A stretch of 30,049 bases of DNA from an uncultured Anaerolineaceae bacterium (GCA_964408835.1 CAYPAZ010000001.1:1-30049); one strand, 5' to 3'; shown: positions 9,592 to 19,079, counted from the stretch's first letter. The notes: generated by a model not told the origin, from the sequence alone. Program-made: numbers and translations.

Positions 9592-10371
9592 CTAGCTGCG
9601 TTCCGGCTCTGGCCCGAGTGTTGCGTCGATGACGCCGTCGTCGGCCTGGGCTTTCGGAGGTGGCTGCTCACGTTTTGCCGGGGCGAAGGGGTCATGGGTT
9701 TTCTGCGGCTCGAAGGGATCGCGCCGCTGCTCAGCCTGGGGTTGAGCCGGGGTTCGCTGCCGCGTCACCGTGTTCGCCGGACGCGTCGACGCTCGCGCGG
9801 GAGGGGGTTGCGCCGCGACCGGGGTGGGTGGCGACGGCCTTTGAGCGGGTCGAGTCTCTCGCCCATTCGAGGGCGAAGCGCCGGGAAGCGCCGGCCTGGC
9901 TGCACGTACGGGGAAGACCTCTCGCGGGGGCTTTTCGAGCCCGCAAAACGGGCATGCCATCCACGCGTAGCTCAGCGGCTTGGCGCATGAGCGGCAAGGC
10001 TCCTTGAGCTGCGTCCGGCACGAGGGGCAGATCAGGTACTCCTCGTAGACGCGGCGTTTGCAGGTAGGGCAGGACTTCTGGTCCTCAAGTTCCTGGAGGA
10101 GCGCTTCTTCCTCGAGAGACCGTTCGTAGAGCTCTGTGAGCGTGTAACGCGGGCGGAGGATCAGATAAATCCAGTGCCCCGGCAGGAAGAAGAACAGGAC
10201 GAGGAGAATGGCGACGGTCTGGATAATCGGGTCGCGCGTCCGCTGGCGGATGTCCCGGTACGCCCAGAAGACAAGCGTCGCCCACATTGCCGCGACGTAG
10301 ATGCCACCGACCACCAGAATGAGCCGCAGGGTCGCTTCCCAGGACCCGCCCGGCCAGCTGATGGAGTCCAT
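9592..10371 (-). CDS. Membrane-anchored double zinc-ribbon protein with Pro/Ala-rich tail, 259 aa
   Basis: Two N-terminal hydrophobic segments ending IYLILRP, four CxxC pairs (CPTC, CPSC, CRSC, CPFC) and a low-complexity C-terminus. Strong GGAGGTG SD. Confidence 0.8.
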   Translation of the reverse strand: MDSISWPGGSWEATLRLILVVGGIYVAAMWATLVFWAYRDIRQRTRDPIIQTVAILLVLFFFLPGHWIYLILRPRYTLTELYERSLEEEALLQELEDQKSCPTCKRRVYEEYLICPSCRTQLKEPCRSCAKPLSYAWMACPFCGLEKPPREVFPVRAARPALPGASPSNGRETRPAQRPSPPTPVAAQPPPARASTRPANTVTRQRTPAQPQAEQRRDPFEPQKTHDPFAPAKREQPPPKAQADDGVIDATLGPEPERS

Positions 10372-13671: not shown

Positions 13672-14154
13672 TCAGCCTCGGTCTGGGCGCTTCGGGACCA
13701 TGACTTTGCGCCGGAAGTAGCAGACTTCCTCGCCCCGCTGGTTGAAGCCCCGCGTCTCGACGGTGACGATGCCGCGGTCCGGCTTGCTGGAGGACTCGAC
13801 TTTGTCGAGCACAGTAGTTTCGCCCCGGATGGTATCGCCATGGAAGGTGGGCTTCGTGTGCTGGAGGCTCTCGATCTCGAGGTTGGCGATGGCCTTCCCC
13901 GAGACATCGGCGACGCTCATTCCGAGCAGCAGTGAGTAGACCAGGTTGCCCACCACCACGTTCTGCCCGAACTGGCTCTCCTCCTCGGCATACCAGCGGT
14001 CGGAGTGGAGGGGGTGGTGGTTCATCGTCATGTCGCAGAAGAGGTGGTCCATCTCCTCCGTGATCGTTTTGCCGGGCCAGTGCTTGTAGACATCGCCGAC
14101 GACAAAGTCCTCGTAGTATCGGCCGAACTTGTCCCGGCCATCATGCACGGTCAT
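13672..14154 (-). CDS. MaoC-family (R)-enoyl-CoA hydratase; candidate mesaconyl-CoA hydratase, 160 aa
   Basis: FGRYYEDF..G.VYKHWPGKTITE..DHLFC..TMNHHPLH...GKAIANL...PTFHGDT...FRRKVMVP. ATG 14154 follows AAGGCGGAG. The specific function is inferred from ccr linkage. Confidence 0.85.
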   Translation of the reverse strand: MTVHDGRDKFGRYYEDFVVGDVYKHWPGKTITEEMDHLFCDMTMNHHPLHSDRWYAEEESQFGQNVVVGNLVYSLLLGMSVADVSGKAIANLEIESLQHTKPTFHGDTIRGETTVLDKVESSSKPDRGIVTVETRGFNQRGEEVCYFRRKVMVPKRPDRG

Positions 14155-14248
14155 GAGGTGGCTCCGCCTTGTCTCGAACCACGAAGACACAAGGGACATG
14201 ACGACCCACTAAAGCCACAGGTCCGGGACGTGGTGCTGTCGTGGGGAA

Positions 14249-15421
14249 TCATACCGGGTAGTCGCGGAGGAGGTTGCGGGTAATGACCAGCTTCTGGATG
14301 TCGCTTGTGCCCTCGGCGATGATCATCAGAGGGGCGTCGCGGTAGTACCGTTCAAGCGGTAGCTCCTTGCTGTAGGCCACTCCGCCGTGAATACGCATGG
14401 CGTCGAGGACCACCTCCTGGGCGATCTCCGTCGCGAACAGCTTCGCCATGCCGGCGTCGAGATCGCTGCGTTCGCCGGCGTCCTTCTTGCGCGCCGCGTC
14501 GAACGTTAGCAGCCGGGCAGCGCGGATCTTCGTCGCCATCTCCGCGAGCCTGATCTGCTGGGCCTGGTGCTGGATGATGGGTACACCGAACGCTTCACGC
14601 TTCTGGGCATAGCGTATGGCGTCGTCGAAGGCCGCCTGAGCGACGCCGACTCCCCTGGCGGCGACGTTGACTCGGCCAACTTCAAGTGCGGACATAATGT
14701 GTTGGAAGCCGCTCCCCTCCTGGCCCCCCAACACCGCGCTCGCCGGGACGCGCGCATCCTCGAAGGAAAGTTCGGTCGTCTCGACGCCCTTGTAGCCGAG
14801 CTTCTCGAACTTCTTGCCTTTGATGAAGCCGGGGGTGTCGTGGGGGACCAGGAACGCGGTGATCCCGCGGTGTCGCGGTTCGGCGTTGGGGTCGGTCTTG
14901 GTCATGACGAGGTAGACACCGGCGCGATGGCCGTTCGTGACCCACATTTTCTGGCCGTTGATGACATAGTCGTCGCCGTCGCGGCGGGCGGTCGTCTTGA
15001 TGGCCTGGGCATCGGAGCCAGCGTCAGGTTCGGTGATGCTCAGCGCACATCGCATCTCCGGTTCCACGAGCTTTGGGAGGTAGTAGTCCTTCTGCTCCGT
15101 GGTGCCGTACTCGTTGATGGCGTAACCGACGAGCACATGCGTGTTGATGATGCCGGCGAGGCTCATCCACCCCCTTGCGAGTTCGATGCAGACCCCCGCG
15201 TAGCATTCGAACGTCAGGTCGAGCCCGCCGTAGCTCTCCGGGATCTTGATCCCGAACAGGCCCATGTCGGACATCCCCTTGAGTAGCGGCTCGGGGAACT
15301 CGTCTGCGTGCTCGAACTCGGAAGCGCTGGGCCGGACCTCGCGGTCGACCCACACCCCGACGTTGCTCACGATCTCGCGGGCGATAGGGTCGAGGATGTC
15401 GGCGGCGAAGTCGCGGGCCAT
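14249..15421 (-). CDS. Acyl-CoA dehydrogenase; candidate methylsuccinyl-CoA dehydrogenase, 390 aa
   Basis: IPESYGG, ARGWMSLAGIINTH, SITEPDAGSD, NGQKMWVTNG, GYKGVETTEL, EVGRVNVAARG, IHGG and AEGTSDIQK. The specific function is inferred from context. Confidence 0.9.
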   Translation of the reverse strand: MARDFAADILDPIAREIVSNVGVWVDREVRPSASEFEHADEFPEPLLKGMSDMGLFGIKIPESYGGLDLTFECYAGVCIELARGWMSLAGIINTHVLVGYAINEYGTTEQKDYYLPKLVEPEMRCALSITEPDAGSDAQAIKTTARRDGDDYVINGQKMWVTNGHRAGVYLVMTKTDPNAEPRHRGITAFLVPHDTPGFIKGKKFEKLGYKGVETTELSFEDARVPASAVLGGQEGSGFQHIMSALEVGRVNVAARGVGVAQAAFDDAIRYAQKREAFGVPIIQHQAQQIRLAEMATKIRAARLLTFDAARKKDAGERSDLDAGMAKLFATEIAQEVVLDAMRIHGGVAYSKELPLERYYRDAPLMIIAEGTSDIQKLVITRNLLRDYPV

Positions 15422-15424
15422 GGT

Positions 15425-16327
15425 TCAGCTTCCGGCGAGGGCCCGCTCGCGGGCCTCGATATCACTCTGCCACTCAACGATGTCGACTGCCCGCAGGTAG
15501 ATGGGCCGGTCGATCATCTTGCCGTCGAGCCCGACTGCGCCGAGTCCCTGCCGTTCGCCCTCTTCGTAGGCTTCGACGACGCGCTTCGCCCAATCCAGCT
15601 CATCGTCCGGCGGGGCGAAGACGCGGTTGGCCACATCGACCTGGGTCGGATGGATGCAGTACTTGCCGCGGTAGCCGAGGACGCGTGCGTGGGTAATGTC
15701 CCGTTCGAAGTGCTCGATGTCCTGGTAGTCGGGCTCGGGGCAGTCGATGGGTACAAGATTCGCCGCCATGGCAGCGTTCGCCATCCGGGCCCGGCCATAC
15801 TCGATCTCGACGCCGCCACGGGTGCGCATGACGCCGAGGCTGGTGACGTAGTCCTCGGCGCCCATCGAGGCCCCTATCAGGCGGCCGGAGCTGAAGCAGA
15901 TCGCCTCCACTTTGGCCATGCCTTCTGTCGACTCGATCCACGGGATGAGCTTCACGGTGCCGGGCTCCATACCCTGCGTCTTTTCCAGCAGCGTCAGATA
16001 GTGGTCGACCTGGACCAGCGTCTCCGGGTTGTGCGTCTTGGGCAGATGGATGCCGTCGAGCCCGGGACGGACCACTGCCTCAAGGTCCTCTTCCAGCAGC
16101 CCGGTGGTCAGATCGTTCGGCCGGACGAACACCATGCGGCCCTTCTTGGGGAAGTCGGGAAGGACGCCCTTCACGATCTCGCGGGCCTTCGGCTTGTCGG
16201 CGAACGCAACCGAGTCCTCAAGGTCGAACAGGATGATGTCGGCCGGGATGTCCCGCGCCTTCTCGATGAACCGTTCGCGGATCCCAGGGACGGACATCAT
16301 GGAACGGATGATGGGGAGCTTCACCAT
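15425..16327 (-). CDS. CitE/malyl-CoA lyase-family CoA-ester lyase (HpcH/HpaI), 300 aa
   Basis: RSMMSVPG, DLEDSVA, FVRPN, IESTEG, GAEDY, GKYCIHPTQV and C-terminal DGKMID. ATG 16327 follows GAAAGG. Confidence 0.88.
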   Translation of the reverse strand: MVKLPIIRSMMSVPGIRERFIEKARDIPADIILFDLEDSVAFADKPKAREIVKGVLPDFPKKGRMVFVRPNDLTTGLLEEDLEAVVRPGLDGIHLPKTHNPETLVQVDHYLTLLEKTQGMEPGTVKLIPWIESTEGMAKVEAICFSSGRLIGASMGAEDYVTSLGVMRTRGGVEIEYGRARMANAAMAANLVPIDCPEPDYQDIEHFERDITHARVLGYRGKYCIHPTQVDVANRVFAPPDDELDWAKRVVEAYEEGERQGLGAVGLDGKMIDRPIYLRAVDIVEWQSDIEARERALAGS

Positions 16328-16429
16328 AGTCAGGTCGCCTTTCGACAGAGGGTAGTGAAGGAGGCATCGCATTATGGATGCTTCCCGGGAGTCAGCGCAC
16401 GTGGGCGGCGTGGCCCGGCGCGCCCGGGG

Positions 16430-17686
16430 TCAGGAAACCGTCGTCATCCCTTCGCGTGGCGCGCCGACGAGGATCACCATGTTCCCGTCGGGCTGCGAGT
16501 TTTCGTACATGAGCTGATGGCACTCGCCGGTCTCCTCGAACGGGAATACGCGGGAAACGCAGGGGTCCACCTTGCCCGCGACGACCAGGTCGTTGAAGGC
16601 GTTCGCCTGCTCATCGTTGGCGAAGTGCGAGCCCTGCAGCCGCTTCTGGCGCATCCAGAGGTACCGCAGGTCAACATCGGCGTTGTAGCCGCTCGTCCCA
16701 GCGCAGATAACGACCATCCCGCCGTTGTCGGCGACGAAGATGGAGGTTGGGATGGTGTCCTGGCCCGGGTGTTCGAAGACGATCCGCGGGTTCTTGCGCT
16801 CGCCGAGCACATCCCAGAGTGCTTTGCCGAATGCCCGCGCACCGACGGTGAACTTCCCCATCGTCTCGGCGTCGTCCCAGGCAGGTAGCCGGCCCCAGTG
16901 GTCGAAGTCCTTGCGGTTGATGCAGCCGATGGCGCCCAGGCGCTTGCAGAAGTCGTACTTGGCCTCGTTCGAGACCACCGCCACGGGCTTCGCTCCCTTG
17001 AGCGCCGCGAGCTGGATGGCCATAGAACCAAGCCCGCCGGCTCCACCCCACACCAACACCACGTCGCCCTCACGGACGTCGTGCGGTGGCCAGCCGAAGA
17101 GCATGCGATAGGCGGTGGCGCCCACGAGAGTTGGCGCGGCAGCAGCCTCCCACGTCAGCTGTGGCGCTTTGGGCATGCACTGGTGAGCCTGGACCTTTGT
17201 GAACTGGGCAAACGAGCCCCAGTTGGTCTCGTAGCCCCAAATCTTGAACGAGGGGCTGAACATGGGGTCTTCGCCCGAGAGCACCTCCGGGGCGTTCACA
17301 TCCCAGCTGCCACAGTGGACGACGACTTCGTCCCCGACTTTGAGATTCTTCACATTCGAGCCGACCGCGTAGACGATTCCAGAGGCGTCACTTCCGCCGA
17401 TATGGAAGTCTTCGGTTTCGCCGCCCCGTTGCCGGGCGGCGATGACATCGACCGGCGTGCCAAGGCTTGCCCAGACGTTGTTGTAGTTCACCCCGGCGGC
17501 CATGACGTAGACGAGCGCGTCTTCGGGGCCGATTTCCGGGACGGGCACGACCTCGGACTGGAATGCCTGCCGCGGCTCACCGAAGCGAGACTGGCGGATG
17601 AGCTGCGCGTGCATGGTGGCGGGGATGTGGCCGAGCGGCGGCGCCTCCCCGAGGGCATAGAGATCCTTGAGGGTGTCAGTGGACAT
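16430..17686 (-). CDS. ccr: Crotonyl-CoA carboxylase/reductase, 418 aa
   Basis: [93 protein letters not shown] 17686 follows GAGGAAG. Confidence 0.93.
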
Positions 17687-17741
17687 AGCTTCCTCGAAGC
17701 GCAAGCCGGTGCGGTTGGCTGGCGGAGATGGTGGTCGCCAC

Positions 17742-17770
17742 AATCTACAAGAGCGCTATTGACGCGTAAA
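17742..17770 (-). promoter_or_regulatory. Putative sigma70 promoter of the ccr cluster (TTTACG-N17-TAGATT)
   Basis: On the minus strand, TTTACG at 17770-17765, a 17-nt spacer and TAGATT at 17747-17742, about 55 nt upstream of the ccr ATG. Confidence 0.6.
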
Positions 17771-17810: not shown

Positions 17811-18884
17811 TTATGGAACCGGCAGCTCAGCCCCTTCGGCGGCGGACCGATAGCAGGCAGCCACGACCTCGTGGGCGCGCAGCGCAACGGCGAAGTCGGG
17901 GAATGCTGGCCGGCCGTCCGCCACCGCCTGCAGGAACCGGACATCCTCGAGCATCCCCTGCCGCGCAAGGTCGGCTTCCAGCTCGCTCAACCCGGCGAGG
18001 CTGACGTAGCGGTCGAGCACTTCCTCGGAGGTCAGTTCGACTTCCGGGCCTTCAGCCAGCGCGTACCGGATCGGCCCGAGGAAGTCATGCTCGGTCCAGA
18101 ACCATCCACGCTCGAAGAACACCTCGAGCAGGCGGCGCGTCAGGCGGCGTGACTCCACGGCGTGCCAGATCGAGCTGAGCGTGGTCTGGTGGCCGCCCTC
18201 GTGCTGGAAAGTGGCCATGGCGACATCCTCGATCCCGTCGTGGCCCGTGGTGACGCGGGTATGGCAGCGGACCCTCTCGATGGGCCCGAACAGCCAGTGG
18301 AAGACGTCGACATCGTGGATCGAGTGCTCGACCAGCGTGCCGCCGCCGGTGCGGGCGGGGTCGCCCCGCCAGGTGCTGCGATAGTGCCCTTCGATGGGGA
18401 AGACCTGGTCGTCGCGCATGTGCGCTGTGAGCAGCGGCCCGAGGTCGTGATTGGACATCAGGTCGGCAAGCACGGTGTAGACGGGAGAGTACCGGAGCAC
18501 GAGGCCCACCTGGTTGACCACCCCCGCGTCGCGGGTGAGCGCCGCCATCCGCCGGACCGCTTCGATGGACATGGCCAGCGGCTTCTCGCAGAAGATTGCC
18601 AGCCCTCGCTCCACGGCTGCCTCCACCAGCGCTGGATGAGCGGAGGTTTCGGTGCAGATGTAGACAGCGTTGAGGCGCGGGTCCGCGAGCAGCGTCTGGG
18701 CGTCGCTTGTCGCGACATCGGCGCCGACGATGTCGGCGAATGCGCGAGCCCGCTCAAGGTCCAGGTCACAGGTCGCTGCGTACTGGGCAGGTACCAGTTC
18801 CGAGCGAATCGCCCCGCGGATGTTGCGCGAATGAAAGCGGCCGATGTGGCCGCAACCGATGAGTCCGACAACGGGATAAGGCAC
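17811..18884 (-). CDS. Gfo/Idh/MocA-family oxidoreductase, ~357 aa
   Basis: VGLIGCGHIG, AVYICT..SAH, IFCEKPLA, QVGLVLRYSP, GGGTLVEHSIHDVD. GTG 18884 is preferred because the alternative ATG 18917 overlaps a TAAAAT -10 candidate (18921-18916). The start is uncertain. Confidence 0.85.
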   Translation of the reverse strand: MPYPVVGLIGCGHIGRFHSRNIRGAIRSELVPAQYAATCDLDLERARAFADIVGADVATSDAQTLLADPRLNAVYICTETSAHPALVEAAVERGLAIFCEKPLAMSIEAVRRMAALTRDAGVVNQVGLVLRYSPVYTVLADLMSNHDLGPLLTAHMRDDQVFPIEGHYRSTWRGDPARTGGGTLVEHSIHDVDVFHWLFGPIERVRCHTRVTTGHDGIEDVAMATFQHEGGHQTTLSSIWHAVESRRLTRRLLEVFFERGWFWTEHDFLGPIRYALAEGPEVELTSEEVLDRYVSLAGLSELEADLARQGMLEDVRFLQAVADGRPAFPDFAVALRAHEVVAACYRSAAEGAELPVP

Positions 18885-18923
18885 GTCTGGAAGGCTCTTG
18901 GAGAGTTTTGCCTGCATTTTACT

Positions 18924-19079
18924 GGTGGGTTGCCCTCTGTTGCTCACCCTACCCTGTGGGGAGCCGAATATGCCGTTGTGGGCTTAACGGCCCCCACCGC
19001 CCCTCAAAGGGCGAAAACGGCCGCCTGCAGAAGCGATCACCTGGGGGCGCAAGCGTGGTCTTCTGCGGGCGGCCTTTTT
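18924..19079 (+). ncRNA. Candidate structured RNA of unknown family (four stems, ends in a terminator-like hairpin)
   Basis: Consecutive stems 18924-30/18942-48; 18956-61/18992-97 enclosing 18972-77/18986-91; 18998-19002/19009-13; 19019-32/19061-74 with inner 19035-40/19055-60 and a GCAA tetraloop; then T5. Four G-U wobbles pair only on the + strand. Confidence 0.35.
19019..19079 (+). terminator. Intrinsic-terminator-like hairpin
   Basis: The 14-bp stem GGCCGCCTGCAGAA / TTCTGCGGGCGGCC is followed directly by TTTTT. Confidence 0.55.

What the first reader, a model, noticed from the sequence alone, without database searches (positions are those of the whole stretch)
13672..17686. Actinobacterial-style ethylmalonyl-CoA pathway cluster (ccr - CoA-ester lyase - acyl-CoA dehydrogenase - MaoC) in a probable Chloroflexota genome
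Seen: four same-strand genes behind a TTTACG-17-TAGATT promoter. Ccr keeps the CO2-pocket motifs NYNN-W, WGYE and GSH, equivalent to Asn81, Phe170 (here Tyr), Glu171 and His365 of Kitasatospora setae ECR, so it should carboxylate rather than only reduce. Established: the ethylmalonyl-CoA pathway uses Ccr, Epi, Ecm, Mcd, Mch and Mcl to assimilate acetyl-CoA with CO2 without isocitrate lyase. From memory, Streptomyces clusters ccr with meaA/ecm, a CitE-like lyase, a single-domain MaoC and an acyl-CoA dehydrogenase carrying the same ARGWMS..GIINTH / GYKGV.TTEL / HWPGKT motifs. Inference: CO2-co-assimilating acetate metabolism, possibly exchanged with Actinomycetota. No PKS lies nearby, which argues against extender-unit supply.
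Basis: partly seen in the sequence, partly recalled or inferred. Interest (0 to 1): 0.6.

Follow-up and report, generated by a model that had tools for sequence, protein, structure and literature searches.

The report
Ethylmalonyl-CoA pathway operon in Chloroflexota
An uncultured Chloroflexota bacterium (family Tepidiformaceae) has a four-gene operon for the CO2-fixing enzyme Ccr and three later enzymes of the ethylmalonyl-CoA route that turns acetate units into cell carbon. The route is well known, but I found no report of it in this lineage, and here it probably relies on an unusual two-piece B12 mutase encoded elsewhere in the genome.

Summary
Four co-directional minus-strand genes at 13672-17686 encode a bona fide crotonyl-CoA carboxylase/reductase (Ccr), a CitE-like CoA-ester lyase, an acyl-CoA dehydrogenase and a single-domain MaoC hydratase.

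**Supported:** the dehydrogenase and hydratase are reciprocal-best-hit orthologues of mcd and mch in the Streptomycete emc operon (50% and 73-76% identity).

**Not supported ("actinobacterial-style"):**
- The Ccr belongs to the AntE/Methylorubrum branch, not the Streptomyces branch.
- The lyase is a different CitE subfamily, inserted in only 2 of 25 family genomes.
- No ecm lies in the operon, and trees give no sign of recent transfer.
- The core ccr-mcd-mch is found across the family (21 of 24 relatives).

**The missing mutase** is probably a split, MCM-like large subunit on contig C184 ("group B"). Its clade has diagnostic motifs and sits beside ccr, mcd and mch in at least four other Chloroflexota lineages. 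It never co-occurs with the fused Ecm found in three relatives.

The epimerase is present. Isocitrate lyase was not found, and malate synthase only in one relative.

**Caveats:** cultured Tepidiforma do not grow on acetate alone; the genome is 75% complete; nothing was assayed.

The parts
16430..17686 (-). ccr: crotonyl-CoA carboxylase/reductase, 418 aa
   Evidence: TIGR01751 scores 580.3 bits against a cutoff of 378.55. Best solved relatives are AntE 4y0k (556 bits) and M. extorquens Ccr 4gi2 (490 bits). Motifs: NYNNVW 67-72, WGYE 150-153, QGSHF 351-355. It has Phe at the AntE Val350 pocket position.
15425..16372 (-). CitE-like CoA-ester lyase, candidate beta-methylmalyl-CoA/L-malyl-CoA lyase. 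315 aa as listed; probably 300 aa from Met16 at 16327.
   Evidence: PF03328 scores 148 bits. It is below every NCBIfam cutoff: citE 215/443, RipC 136/375. Best solved relative is Mcl 5ugr, 146 bits. An orthologue in the same position exists only in G005. The same subfamily heads the citE-mcd-mch-mutase operon of L038.
14249..15421 (-). Acyl-CoA dehydrogenase, actinobacterial-type (2S)-methylsuccinyl-CoA dehydrogenase (mcd) orthologue, 390 aa
   Evidence: Reciprocal best hit with the Streptomycete emc-operon mcd (372 bits against 216 for the next hit). Shared clade at 100/98 support. It has a helix-G Arg at the PdMCD Arg-421 column and Ala in place of the Tyr-375 aromatic. There is no N-terminal extension; PdMCD 6es9 scores only 237 bits.
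13672..14199 (-). Single-domain MaoC hydratase, mesaconyl-CoA hydratase (mch) orthologue. 175 aa as listed; probably 160 aa from Met16 at 14154.
   Evidence: 73.5% identical to the mch of the Streptomycete emc operon. 71-76% identical counterparts occur in 24 of 26 Streptomycetaceae genomes. PF19315 MC_hydratase scores 80 bits. Best solved relatives are the Mch structures 4e3e and 8hgn (82 and 75 bits), against PhaJ at 31 bits.
17742..17770 (-). Promoter-like TTTACG-17-TAGATT upstream of ccr (weak)
   Evidence: The sequence was read directly. It matches 8 of 12 consensus positions, below the scan threshold, so it is no better than chance.

Best explanation
The operon encodes four enzymes specific to the ethylmalonyl-CoA (EMC) pathway.

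1. Ccr reductively carboxylates crotonyl-CoA with NADPH and CO2 to (2S)-ethylmalonyl-CoA.
2. An epimerase (contig C6) and a B12 mutase encoded elsewhere convert this to (2S)-methylsuccinyl-CoA.
3. The ACAD (Mcd) oxidises it to mesaconyl-CoA.
4. The MaoC protein (Mch) hydrates that to beta-methylmalyl-CoA.
5. The CitE-like lyase cleaves it to glyoxylate and propionyl-CoA.

Shown: the gene identities, orthology to the genetically validated Streptomycete emc operon, and family-wide conservation.

Inferred: substrates, direction of flux, and the identity of the mutase. The mutase is most likely the split 'group B' MCM-family large subunit on contig C184. It would work with the genome's single detected B12 small subunit, encoded in the Mcm/Epi operon on C6.

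The lyase is an accessory gene inserted into an older ccr-mcd-mch core.
For: - Ccr is above the curated equivalog cutoff, with the CO2-pocket motifs and a small-substrate Phe.
- MaoC and ACAD are reciprocal best hits of the mch and mcd genes of the Streptomycete emc operon. That operon is required for growth on acetate (PMC4606968).
- The ACAD clade is separate from generic SCADs. It carries a clade-specific helix-G Arg at the column of PdMCD Arg-421, the carboxylate binder. It also lacks the Tyr-375 aromatic, as in the alpha-branched-substrate enzyme IBD.
- The ccr-mcd-mch core is conserved. Ccr is in 21 of 24 and MaoC in 21 of 24 same-family genomes, and the genes are adjacent in G022, G021, G012, G008 and G005.
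- The epimerase is above its cutoff on C6.
- Group-B mutases keep the Tyr-89 and Arg-207 equivalents and form a clade at 99.2/100 support. They carry their own 'RTHTQTGGS' and 'ALSC' motifs.
- Group-B mutases lie beside ccr, mcd or mch in G173, G120, G340, G146, G029 and L038.
- They are mutually exclusive with the fused Ecm in 25 family genomes: 19 have group B, 3 the fused Ecm, none both.
- 7 of 9 B-like genomes in a 300-genome phylum sample are Ccr-positive (the count includes unpublished G332).
- No true isocitrate lyase was found; malate synthase was found in one relative only.
Against: - Nothing was assayed.
- The genome is only 75% complete.
- No fused Ecm orthologue was found in G000. 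The group-B assignment rests on context and motifs alone.
- Only one of PdMCD's three substrate arginines has an equivalent.
- The CitE-like lyase is below every curated family cutoff and is missing from the cluster in most relatives.
- The CitE-ACAD-MaoC trio also occurs in genomes without a Ccr match (G068-G071).
- Cultured Tepidiforma cannot use acetate as sole carbon source (PMC10284905).
- The fate of glyoxylate is unresolved, because malate synthase was not found in G000 or in 4 of 5 near-complete relatives.
Confidence: 0.7

Rival explanations
1. The CitE-ACAD-MaoC trio is a catabolic module for C5-dicarboxylates (methylsuccinate, mesaconate, itaconate or citramalate). It would yield acetyl-CoA plus pyruvate, or propionyl-CoA plus glyoxylate. 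Ccr would be adjacent for an unrelated or only loosely coupled reason.
For: The trio occurs without any Ccr match in four other Chloroflexota genomes (G068-G071). The best NCBIfam names for MaoC and CitE are the itaconate enzymes RipB/Ich and, after citE, RipC. CLYBL, a citramalyl-CoA lyase, is the second-best solved relative of the lyase.
Against: The RipB and RipC scores are far below their cutoffs (135/340 and 136/375). No CoA-transferase or CoA-ligase gene is in the operon. ccr, mcd and mch are adjacent across the family, and in other families they also cluster with a dedicated mutase. MaoC is 73-76% identical to the Mch of the emc operon.
Confidence: 0.13
2. The cluster is a crotonyl-CoA node. 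The ACAD would be a butyryl-CoA dehydrogenase that recycles the butyryl-CoA side product of Ccr. MaoC would be an (R)-specific crotonase (PhaJ/CroR) that supplies crotonyl-CoA from (R)-3-hydroxybutyryl-CoA.
For: The ACAD's best NCBIfam hit is a short-chain type, AcrC at 364 bits. Generic SCADs score about 275-290 bits. MaoC-type CroR enzymes exist in EMC organisms (own knowledge).
Against: The ACAD falls in the Mcd clade, not with SCADs. It has a helix-G Arg where SCADs have Gln, and it lacks the Tyr-375 aromatic. MaoC is far closer to Mch (82 and 75 bits) than to PhaJ (31 bits), and is orthologous to the operon Mch.
Confidence: 0.06
3. Ccr supplies ethylmalonyl-CoA or another alkylmalonyl-CoA as a polyketide extender unit.
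For: The nearest solved relative is AntE, an extender-unit enzyme of antimycin biosynthesis.
Against: No PKS or NRPS domain was found in the window ORFs scanned. Phe occupies the position where AntE has the pocket-widening Val350. The gene is conserved next to mcd and mch in small 2-4 Mb genomes.
Confidence: 0.02
4. The gene set is a partial or relict route. It would carry flux only for co-assimilation or redox/CO2 balancing, and not a full acetate-assimilation cycle.
For: Cultured Tepidiforma incorporate and oxidise acetate but cannot grow on it alone. The lyase is patchy and malate synthase is mostly not found.
Against: Strong purifying conservation: the ACAD is 80-95% identical across many metagenomes. 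The complete enzyme set in G000 includes an in-operon lyase. The reported failure on acetate may reflect auxotrophy, because growth drops without yeast extract.
Confidence: 0.09

Closest known systems
Streptomycete emc operon ccr1-ecm-mml-mch-mcd (S. tsukubaensis, PMC4606968; seen here in L118 and L112)
   Same: Single-domain MaoC Mch (73-76% identical). An approximately 400-aa Mcd without an N-terminal extension (50-54% identical, with the same ARGWMS/GYKG/AARG motifs). A Ccr at the head of the operon. A CitE-superfamily lyase.
   Different: No ecm in the operon. The gene order is ccr-lyase-mcd-mch. The Ccr is only 40-42% identical and belongs to another branch. The lyase is only 33% identical to mml. 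The candidate mutase is split and MCM-like rather than a fused MeaA-type Ecm.
Alphaproteobacterial EMC pathway (Cereibacter sphaeroides, Methylorubrum extorquens, Paracoccus denitrificans; Ccr 4gi2, Mcd 6es9/8ciw, Mch 8hgn, Mcl 5ugr/4l9y)
   Same: The same predicted reaction sequence. The Ccr is of the same broad branch (490 bits to 4gi2). The lyase's best solved relative is M. extorquens Mcl.
   Different: The proteobacterial Mcd has an approximately 170-aa N-terminal extension and a three-arginine pocket; here there is no extension and only the Arg-421 equivalent. The proteobacterial Mch is a double hot-dog of about 350 aa; here it is a single domain of about 160 aa.
AntE, the crotonyl-CoA carboxylase/reductase homologue of antimycin biosynthesis (PDB 4y0k)
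   Same: The highest-scoring solved relative (556 bits), with identical CO2-pocket motifs.
   Different: AntE serves polyketide extender-unit supply and has Val350 opening the pocket. The window's Ccr has Phe there and sits with primary-metabolism genes.
Itaconate-degradation pair Ich/Ccl (RipB/RipC). Also, from my own knowledge, the M. tuberculosis Rv2498c-Rv2500c lyase-hydratase-ACAD cluster.
   Same: The same three protein families (CitE-like lyase, MaoC hydratase, ACAD) arranged as neighbours.
   Different: Scores are far below the RipB and RipC cutoffs. There is no CoA transferase and no carboxylase of the MCC type. Ccr and a B12 mutase are linked instead.
Mcl/Mch of the Chloroflexus 3-hydroxypropionate bi-cycle (PDB 4l7z/4l80, 4e3e)
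   Same: The same phylum and the same chemistry (mesaconyl-CoA hydration, methylmalyl-CoA cleavage). 4e3e is the top solved hit for MaoC.
   Different: The Chloroflexus enzymes are a double hot-dog Mch and an HpcH-type Mcl (86 bits to our lyase). The bi-cycle has no Ccr, Ecm or Mcd.

Membership tests
Crotonyl-CoA carboxylase/reductase (ECR; TIGR01751) | Score above the curated equivalog cutoff | tested here: met
   580.3 bits against 378.55
Crotonyl-CoA carboxylase/reductase (ECR; TIGR01751) | Four CO2-pocket residues (Asn, Phe/Tyr, Glu, His of K. setae ECR) | tested here: met
   NYNNVW, WGYE and QGSH are present and aligned with the same motifs of AntE. The K. setae numbering itself was not verified.
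Crotonyl-CoA carboxylase/reductase (ECR; TIGR01751) | Carboxylating activity with crotonyl-CoA | not testable with these tools
   Needs an enzyme assay
Ethylmalonyl-CoA pathway (gene set) | Ethylmalonyl-CoA mutase (Ecm) | tested here: inconclusive
   No fused Ecm orthologue in G000. A candidate split group-B mutase on C184 is supported by context, motifs and distribution.
Ethylmalonyl-CoA pathway (gene set) | Ethylmalonyl-/methylmalonyl-CoA epimerase | tested here: met
   TIGR03081 scores 115.5 bits against a cutoff of 114.95 at G000:C6:19429-19806
Ethylmalonyl-CoA pathway (gene set) | Methylsuccinyl-CoA dehydrogenase and mesaconyl-CoA hydratase | tested here: met
   Met at the level of orthology to the Streptomycete operon mcd and mch. 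The substrates were not assayed.
Ethylmalonyl-CoA pathway (gene set) | Beta-methylmalyl-CoA/L-malyl-CoA lyase | tested here: inconclusive
   A CitE-like gene is in the operon and is nearest to Mcl 5ugr (146 bits). It is below all curated cutoffs and only 33% identical to the Streptomycete mml.
Ethylmalonyl-CoA pathway (gene set) | No isocitrate lyase (glyoxylate cycle absent) | tested here: met
   No hit in G000, which is 75% complete. Only 44-53-bit partial superfamily hits in five 95-98% complete relatives. Agrees with PMC10284905.
Ethylmalonyl-CoA pathway (gene set) | Growth on, or assimilation of, acetate through the pathway | not testable with these tools
   Published Tepidiforma isolates incorporate acetate but do not use it as sole carbon source
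Actinobacterial emc operon | Operon content and order ccr-ecm-mml-mch-mcd | tested here: not met
   The window has ccr-lyase-mcd-mch without ecm. The Streptomycete loci L118 and L112 have ecm after ccr.
Actinobacterial emc operon | Ccr and lyase orthologous to the actinobacterial ones | tested here: not met
   Ccr is 40-42% identical and scores about 300 bits to Streptomyces/K. setae structures, against 556 bits to AntE. The lyase is 33% identical.
Proteobacterial Mcd (PdMCD type) | An approximately 170-residue N-terminal extension | tested here: not met
   The protein is 390 aa and aligns to 6es9 residues 174-550 only
Proteobacterial Mcd (PdMCD type) | Three-arginine carboxylate pocket (Arg-252, Arg-376, Arg-421) | tested here: inconclusive
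   Mapped through MCAD anchors given in PMC5798300. Only the Arg-421 column holds a clade-specific Arg. The Arg-252 column reads N-T-H. The loop position is Lys, and generic ACADs also have a basic residue there. PdMCD itself could not be aligned directly.
Itaconate degradation (Ich/RipB, Ccl/RipC) | Scores above the equivalog cutoffs, and an itaconate CoA-transferase nearby | tested here: not met
   135 against 340 and 136 against 375 bits. No CoA transferase among the window ORFs scanned.

The most novel reading that the evidence does not exclude
Chloroflexota run the ethylmalonyl-CoA pathway with a previously unrecognised kind of ethylmalonyl-CoA mutase. It is a split large subunit of about 560-580 aa from the MCM family ('group B').

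- It keeps the Tyr-89 and Arg-207 equivalents.
- It carries 'RTHTQTGGS' and 'VQS.ALSC(F/Y)DEAL' in place of the canonical 'RFHTQT' and 'LHTNS'.
- It has no B12 subunit gene of its own. It presumably shares the genome's single detected small subunit with the Mcm and Icm-like paralogues.

In three Tepidiformaceae genomes it appears to have been displaced by a fused Ecm that is 59-64% identical to the Streptomycete one.
Probability: 0.55. Interest if true: 0.6.

Novelty: new variant of a known kind. Interest (0 to 1): 0.5.

Why it matters
The EMC pathway is a textbook alternative to the glyoxylate cycle, and its Ccr is the fastest known carboxylase, much used in synthetic CO2-fixation designs.

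If the reading holds, it matters in three ways:
- **Wider phyletic range.** A thermophile-rich, poorly cultivated Chloroflexota lineage carries a conserved EMC gene set. In a 300-genome phylum sample, 17 genomes have Ccr.
- **Published physiology.** The lack of growth of Tepidiforma on acetate was attributed simply to the missing glyoxylate cycle. These genes suggest a different explanation.
- **A new mutase form.** A split, MCM-like Ecm would give a natural case of how methylmalonyl- and ethylmalonyl-CoA specificity is set. It could also supply thermostable parts for pathway engineering.

Tried and rejected
The neighbourhoods of the Streptomyces and Polyangiales CitE-like homologues P0214 and P0174 could not be read.
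- **The one genome-contig scan** was dominated by distant thaumarchaeal CitE-like genes. Only L031-L040 were useful.
- **The C39 mutase fragment** looked like an Ecm at first (57% identity to the Streptomycete Ecm). I rejected that: G030 shows the same pattern within one gene, and C39 and C6 are 77-79% identical to the canonical, Epi-linked group-A mutase.
- **The top HpcH hits of G022 and G021** are HpaI/GarL keto-acid aldolases, not CoA-ester lyases.
- **P0342** was chosen as a bridge to PdMCD but turned out to be an animal MCAD. I used it only as a numbering anchor.
- **The JBC 2008 Ecm paper** is not held, so published Ecm signature residues could not be consulted.
- **The listing of cluster members** gave almost no taxon names.
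- **The MaoC tree** is too short to resolve any direction of transfer.
- **A recent transfer from Actinomycetota**, considered for the cluster core, was rejected. Tepidiformaceae are monophyletic and not nested, and the core is found across the family.
- **PhaA, PhaB, CroR and propionyl-CoA carboxylase** were not searched in G000.

Full report
**Observation.** The window is the whole contig C1 of a 2.43-Mb assembly in 349 contigs, 75% complete. Four minus-strand ORFs occupy 13672-17743.
- Ccr scores 580 bits on TIGR01751 against a cutoff of 378.55.
- The other three proteins are a CitE/HpcH-family lyase, a three-domain acyl-CoA dehydrogenase and a single MaoC hot-dog protein. Each is below every curated NCBIfam cutoff.
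- The ccr start at 17686 follows GAGGAAG.
- The gaps between genes are 57, 3 and 49 nt.
- The lengths of homologues indicate that the lyase and MaoC start at their internal Met16.
- The promoter-like TTTACG-17-TAGATT exists, but at 8 of 12 positions it is not above chance.

The flanking genes are unrelated. An MscS channel and UvrD lie downstream. A Gfo/Idh/MocA oxidoreductase lies upstream, followed by a nuo operon. No PKS domain was found in the ORFs scanned.

**Organism and conservation.** The nearest homologues are named Tepidiformaceae, Tepidiforma or Dehalococcoidia. Ccr is over its cutoff in 21 of 24 same-family genomes, and the MaoC orthologue is in 21 of 24.

In G022, G021, G012 and G008 the cluster reads ccr-ACAD-MaoC with no lyase. 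Only G005 shares the inserted lyase. The lyase's next relatives are about 70% identical metagenomic and Polyangiales proteins, then Streptomyces and Kitasatospora proteins at 61-64%. Other Chloroflexota lyases are only about 50% identical. I therefore read the lyase as an accessory gene inserted into an older core.

**Comparison with the actinobacterial operon.** A Kitasatospora locus gave access to Streptomycetaceae genomes.
- Their emc operon reads ccr-ecm-(lyase)-mch-mcd (L112, L118). This matches the published 6,067-bp ccr1-ecm-mml-mch-mcd operon, which is required for growth on acetate (PMC4606968).
- The window's MaoC is 73.5% identical to the operon Mch and 71-76% identical to counterparts in 24 of 26 Streptomycetaceae genomes.
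- The ACAD is 50-54% identical to the operon Mcd.
- Both are reciprocal best hits.
- The Ccr is only 40-42% identical, and the lyase only 33%.

Against solved structures, the Ccr is nearest to AntE (556 bits) and M. extorquens Ccr (490 bits). The Streptomyces and K. setae enzymes score only about 300 bits. The Ccr has Phe where AntE has Val350.

**ACAD and MaoC evidence.**
- The ACAD tree gives one clade at 100/98 support. It holds the Tepidiformaceae (monophyletic), the operon ACADs of other Chloroflexota and the Streptomycete Mcd, apart from generic SCADs. The internal order of the clade is unresolved.
- I mapped active-site columns using MCAD anchors stated in PMC5798300. The clade has Arg on helix G ('AARG', where SCADs have 'AAQG') at the PdMCD Arg-421 column.
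- It has Ala or Gly in place of the Tyr-375 aromatic before the catalytic Glu.
- In Tepidiformaceae, Leu replaces the canonical Tyr-133 aromatic.
- No equivalent of PdMCD Arg-252 was seen.
- There is no N-terminal extension.
- MaoC is closest to solved mesaconyl-CoA hydratases (82 and 75 bits), against 31 bits for PhaJ.

**Rest of the pathway.**
- No isocitrate lyase or malate synthase hit was found in G000.
- In five 95-98% complete relatives there are only weak partial isocitrate-lyase superfamily hits. Malate synthase was found only in G008. The Tepidiforma isolates also have neither enzyme annotated.
- An epimerase above its cutoff lies in a conserved operon with a mutase large subunit and a B12 small subunit. 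In G000 this operon is on C6.

**The mutases** fall into four groups:

| Group | Members include | Key residues | Reading |
|---|---|---|---|
| A | G000 C39 + C6 (Epi-linked) | Canonical Tyr, Arg and LHTNS | Mcm |
| B | G000 C184 | Tyr and Arg kept; 'RTHTQTGGS' and 'ALSC' | Candidate split Ecm |
| C | G022_1801367, G021_727919 | Phe and Gln | Icm-like |
| Fused | G022, G009, G014 only | 59-64% identical to Streptomycete Ecm | Ecm |

Among the 25 family genomes, group B is in 19 and the fused Ecm in 3. None has both.

**Context for group B.** Group-B-type mutases sit inside EMC clusters in other Chloroflexota:
- L145 (G173) and L148 (G120) hold mcd-mch, mutase B, ccr and an HpcH lyase within 12 kb.
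- In L146 (G340) and L147 (G146), ccr is followed by mutase B.
- L149 (G029) and L038 have lyase-mcd-mch-mutase B-SDR in one operon.

These mutases form one clade with G000 C184 at 99.2/100 support and share its motifs. The clade is weakly sister to the fused Ecm.

In a 300-genome phylum sample, 17 genomes are Ccr-positive and 9 have a B-like mutase. Seven have both. G236 and G332 are flagged unpublished and are included only in these counts. Without them the counts are 15, 8 and 6. Related genomes are not independent, so these counts overstate the association.

Only one B12 small-subunit gene is detectable in G000 (C6), and none lies next to any group-B gene.

**Caveats.**
- The CitE-ACAD-MaoC trio also occurs in four genomes without a Ccr match. 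The module is therefore not strictly tied to Ccr.
- A second, very divergent CitE-like gene (G000 C15) is conserved in 22 of 24 family genomes. It may be the lyase, or a thioesterase, in relatives that lack the in-operon gene.
- Published Tepidiforma isolates incorporate and oxidise acetate but cannot use it as sole carbon source. That paper does not mention Ccr or the EMC pathway.
- No paper in the searchable library describes an EMC pathway in Tepidiformaceae or other Chloroflexota, or a split Ecm. Subscription literature was not searched.

**Verdict.** This is a real operon of EMC-pathway genes. It is ordinary in its chemistry but undescribed for this lineage. Its make-up is mosaic, and it probably depends on a split Ecm.

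Noticed in passing
L047, L059, L065, L073, L077, L080, L082, L088-L091, L100, L101, L104, L108, L109 (match near 10001 in most): In many Thaumarchaeota/Nitrososphaeria genomes, a CitE-like gene (about 36% identical to the window's) lies directly downstream of an MDR-family gene that is 27-31% identical to Ccr. The pairing is conserved and its function is unknown to me.
   Followed up: no
G000:C6:17947-18321; G022:C1:2330353-2330733 and equivalents: Each Tepidiformaceae genome examined shows only one stand-alone B12-binding small-subunit gene but two or three split mutase large subunits (groups A, B, C). This implies a shared small subunit.
   Followed up: partly
G000:C15:13272-14222 (L132:1282-2235, minus strand): A very divergent CitE-like protein scores only 28-36 bits to solved CitE/Mcl structures. 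It is conserved in 22 of 24 family genomes and was not found in sister families. It may be the lyase or a malyl-CoA thioesterase of relatives that lack the in-operon lyase.
   Followed up: partly
window 17811-18947 (minus strand): A Gfo/Idh/MocA oxidoreductase lies directly upstream of ccr. The same arrangement occurs in G022 and G008 (61-66% identity), but no match was found in the fetched loci of G021 or G012. I see no obvious link to the pathway.
   Followed up: no
L038:5624-9621: An Mcl-like HpcH lyase (349 aa) and SucC/SucD-like (malate-thiokinase-like) subunits are transcribed divergently from the citE-mcd-mch-mutase-SDR operon. A DUF559 endonuclease-like ORF sits between them. This looks like a glyoxylate/malyl-CoA supercluster.
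   Followed up: partly
G014 (C29:9417-11384) and G001, G004: G014 has a fused Ecm, and G001 and G004 have group-B mutases plus MaoC. None of the three shows a Ccr above the cutoff. This could be an assembly gap or a real loss.
   Followed up: no
L033 (Kitasatospora sp. NPDC057198, 1-10863): The actinobacterial CitE-like gene closest to the window's (61% identity) sits with a TetR regulator, two SDRs, a thiolase and three ACADs. One of those ACADs falls in the Mcd-like clade. This is a second, uncharacterised lyase/ACAD module in Streptomycetaceae.
   Followed up: partly
G000:C39:11894-12553 (L003): The N-terminal fragment of the group-A mutase has an in-frame TAA 40 nt from the contig end. This is probably an assembly-end error.
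   Followed up: no
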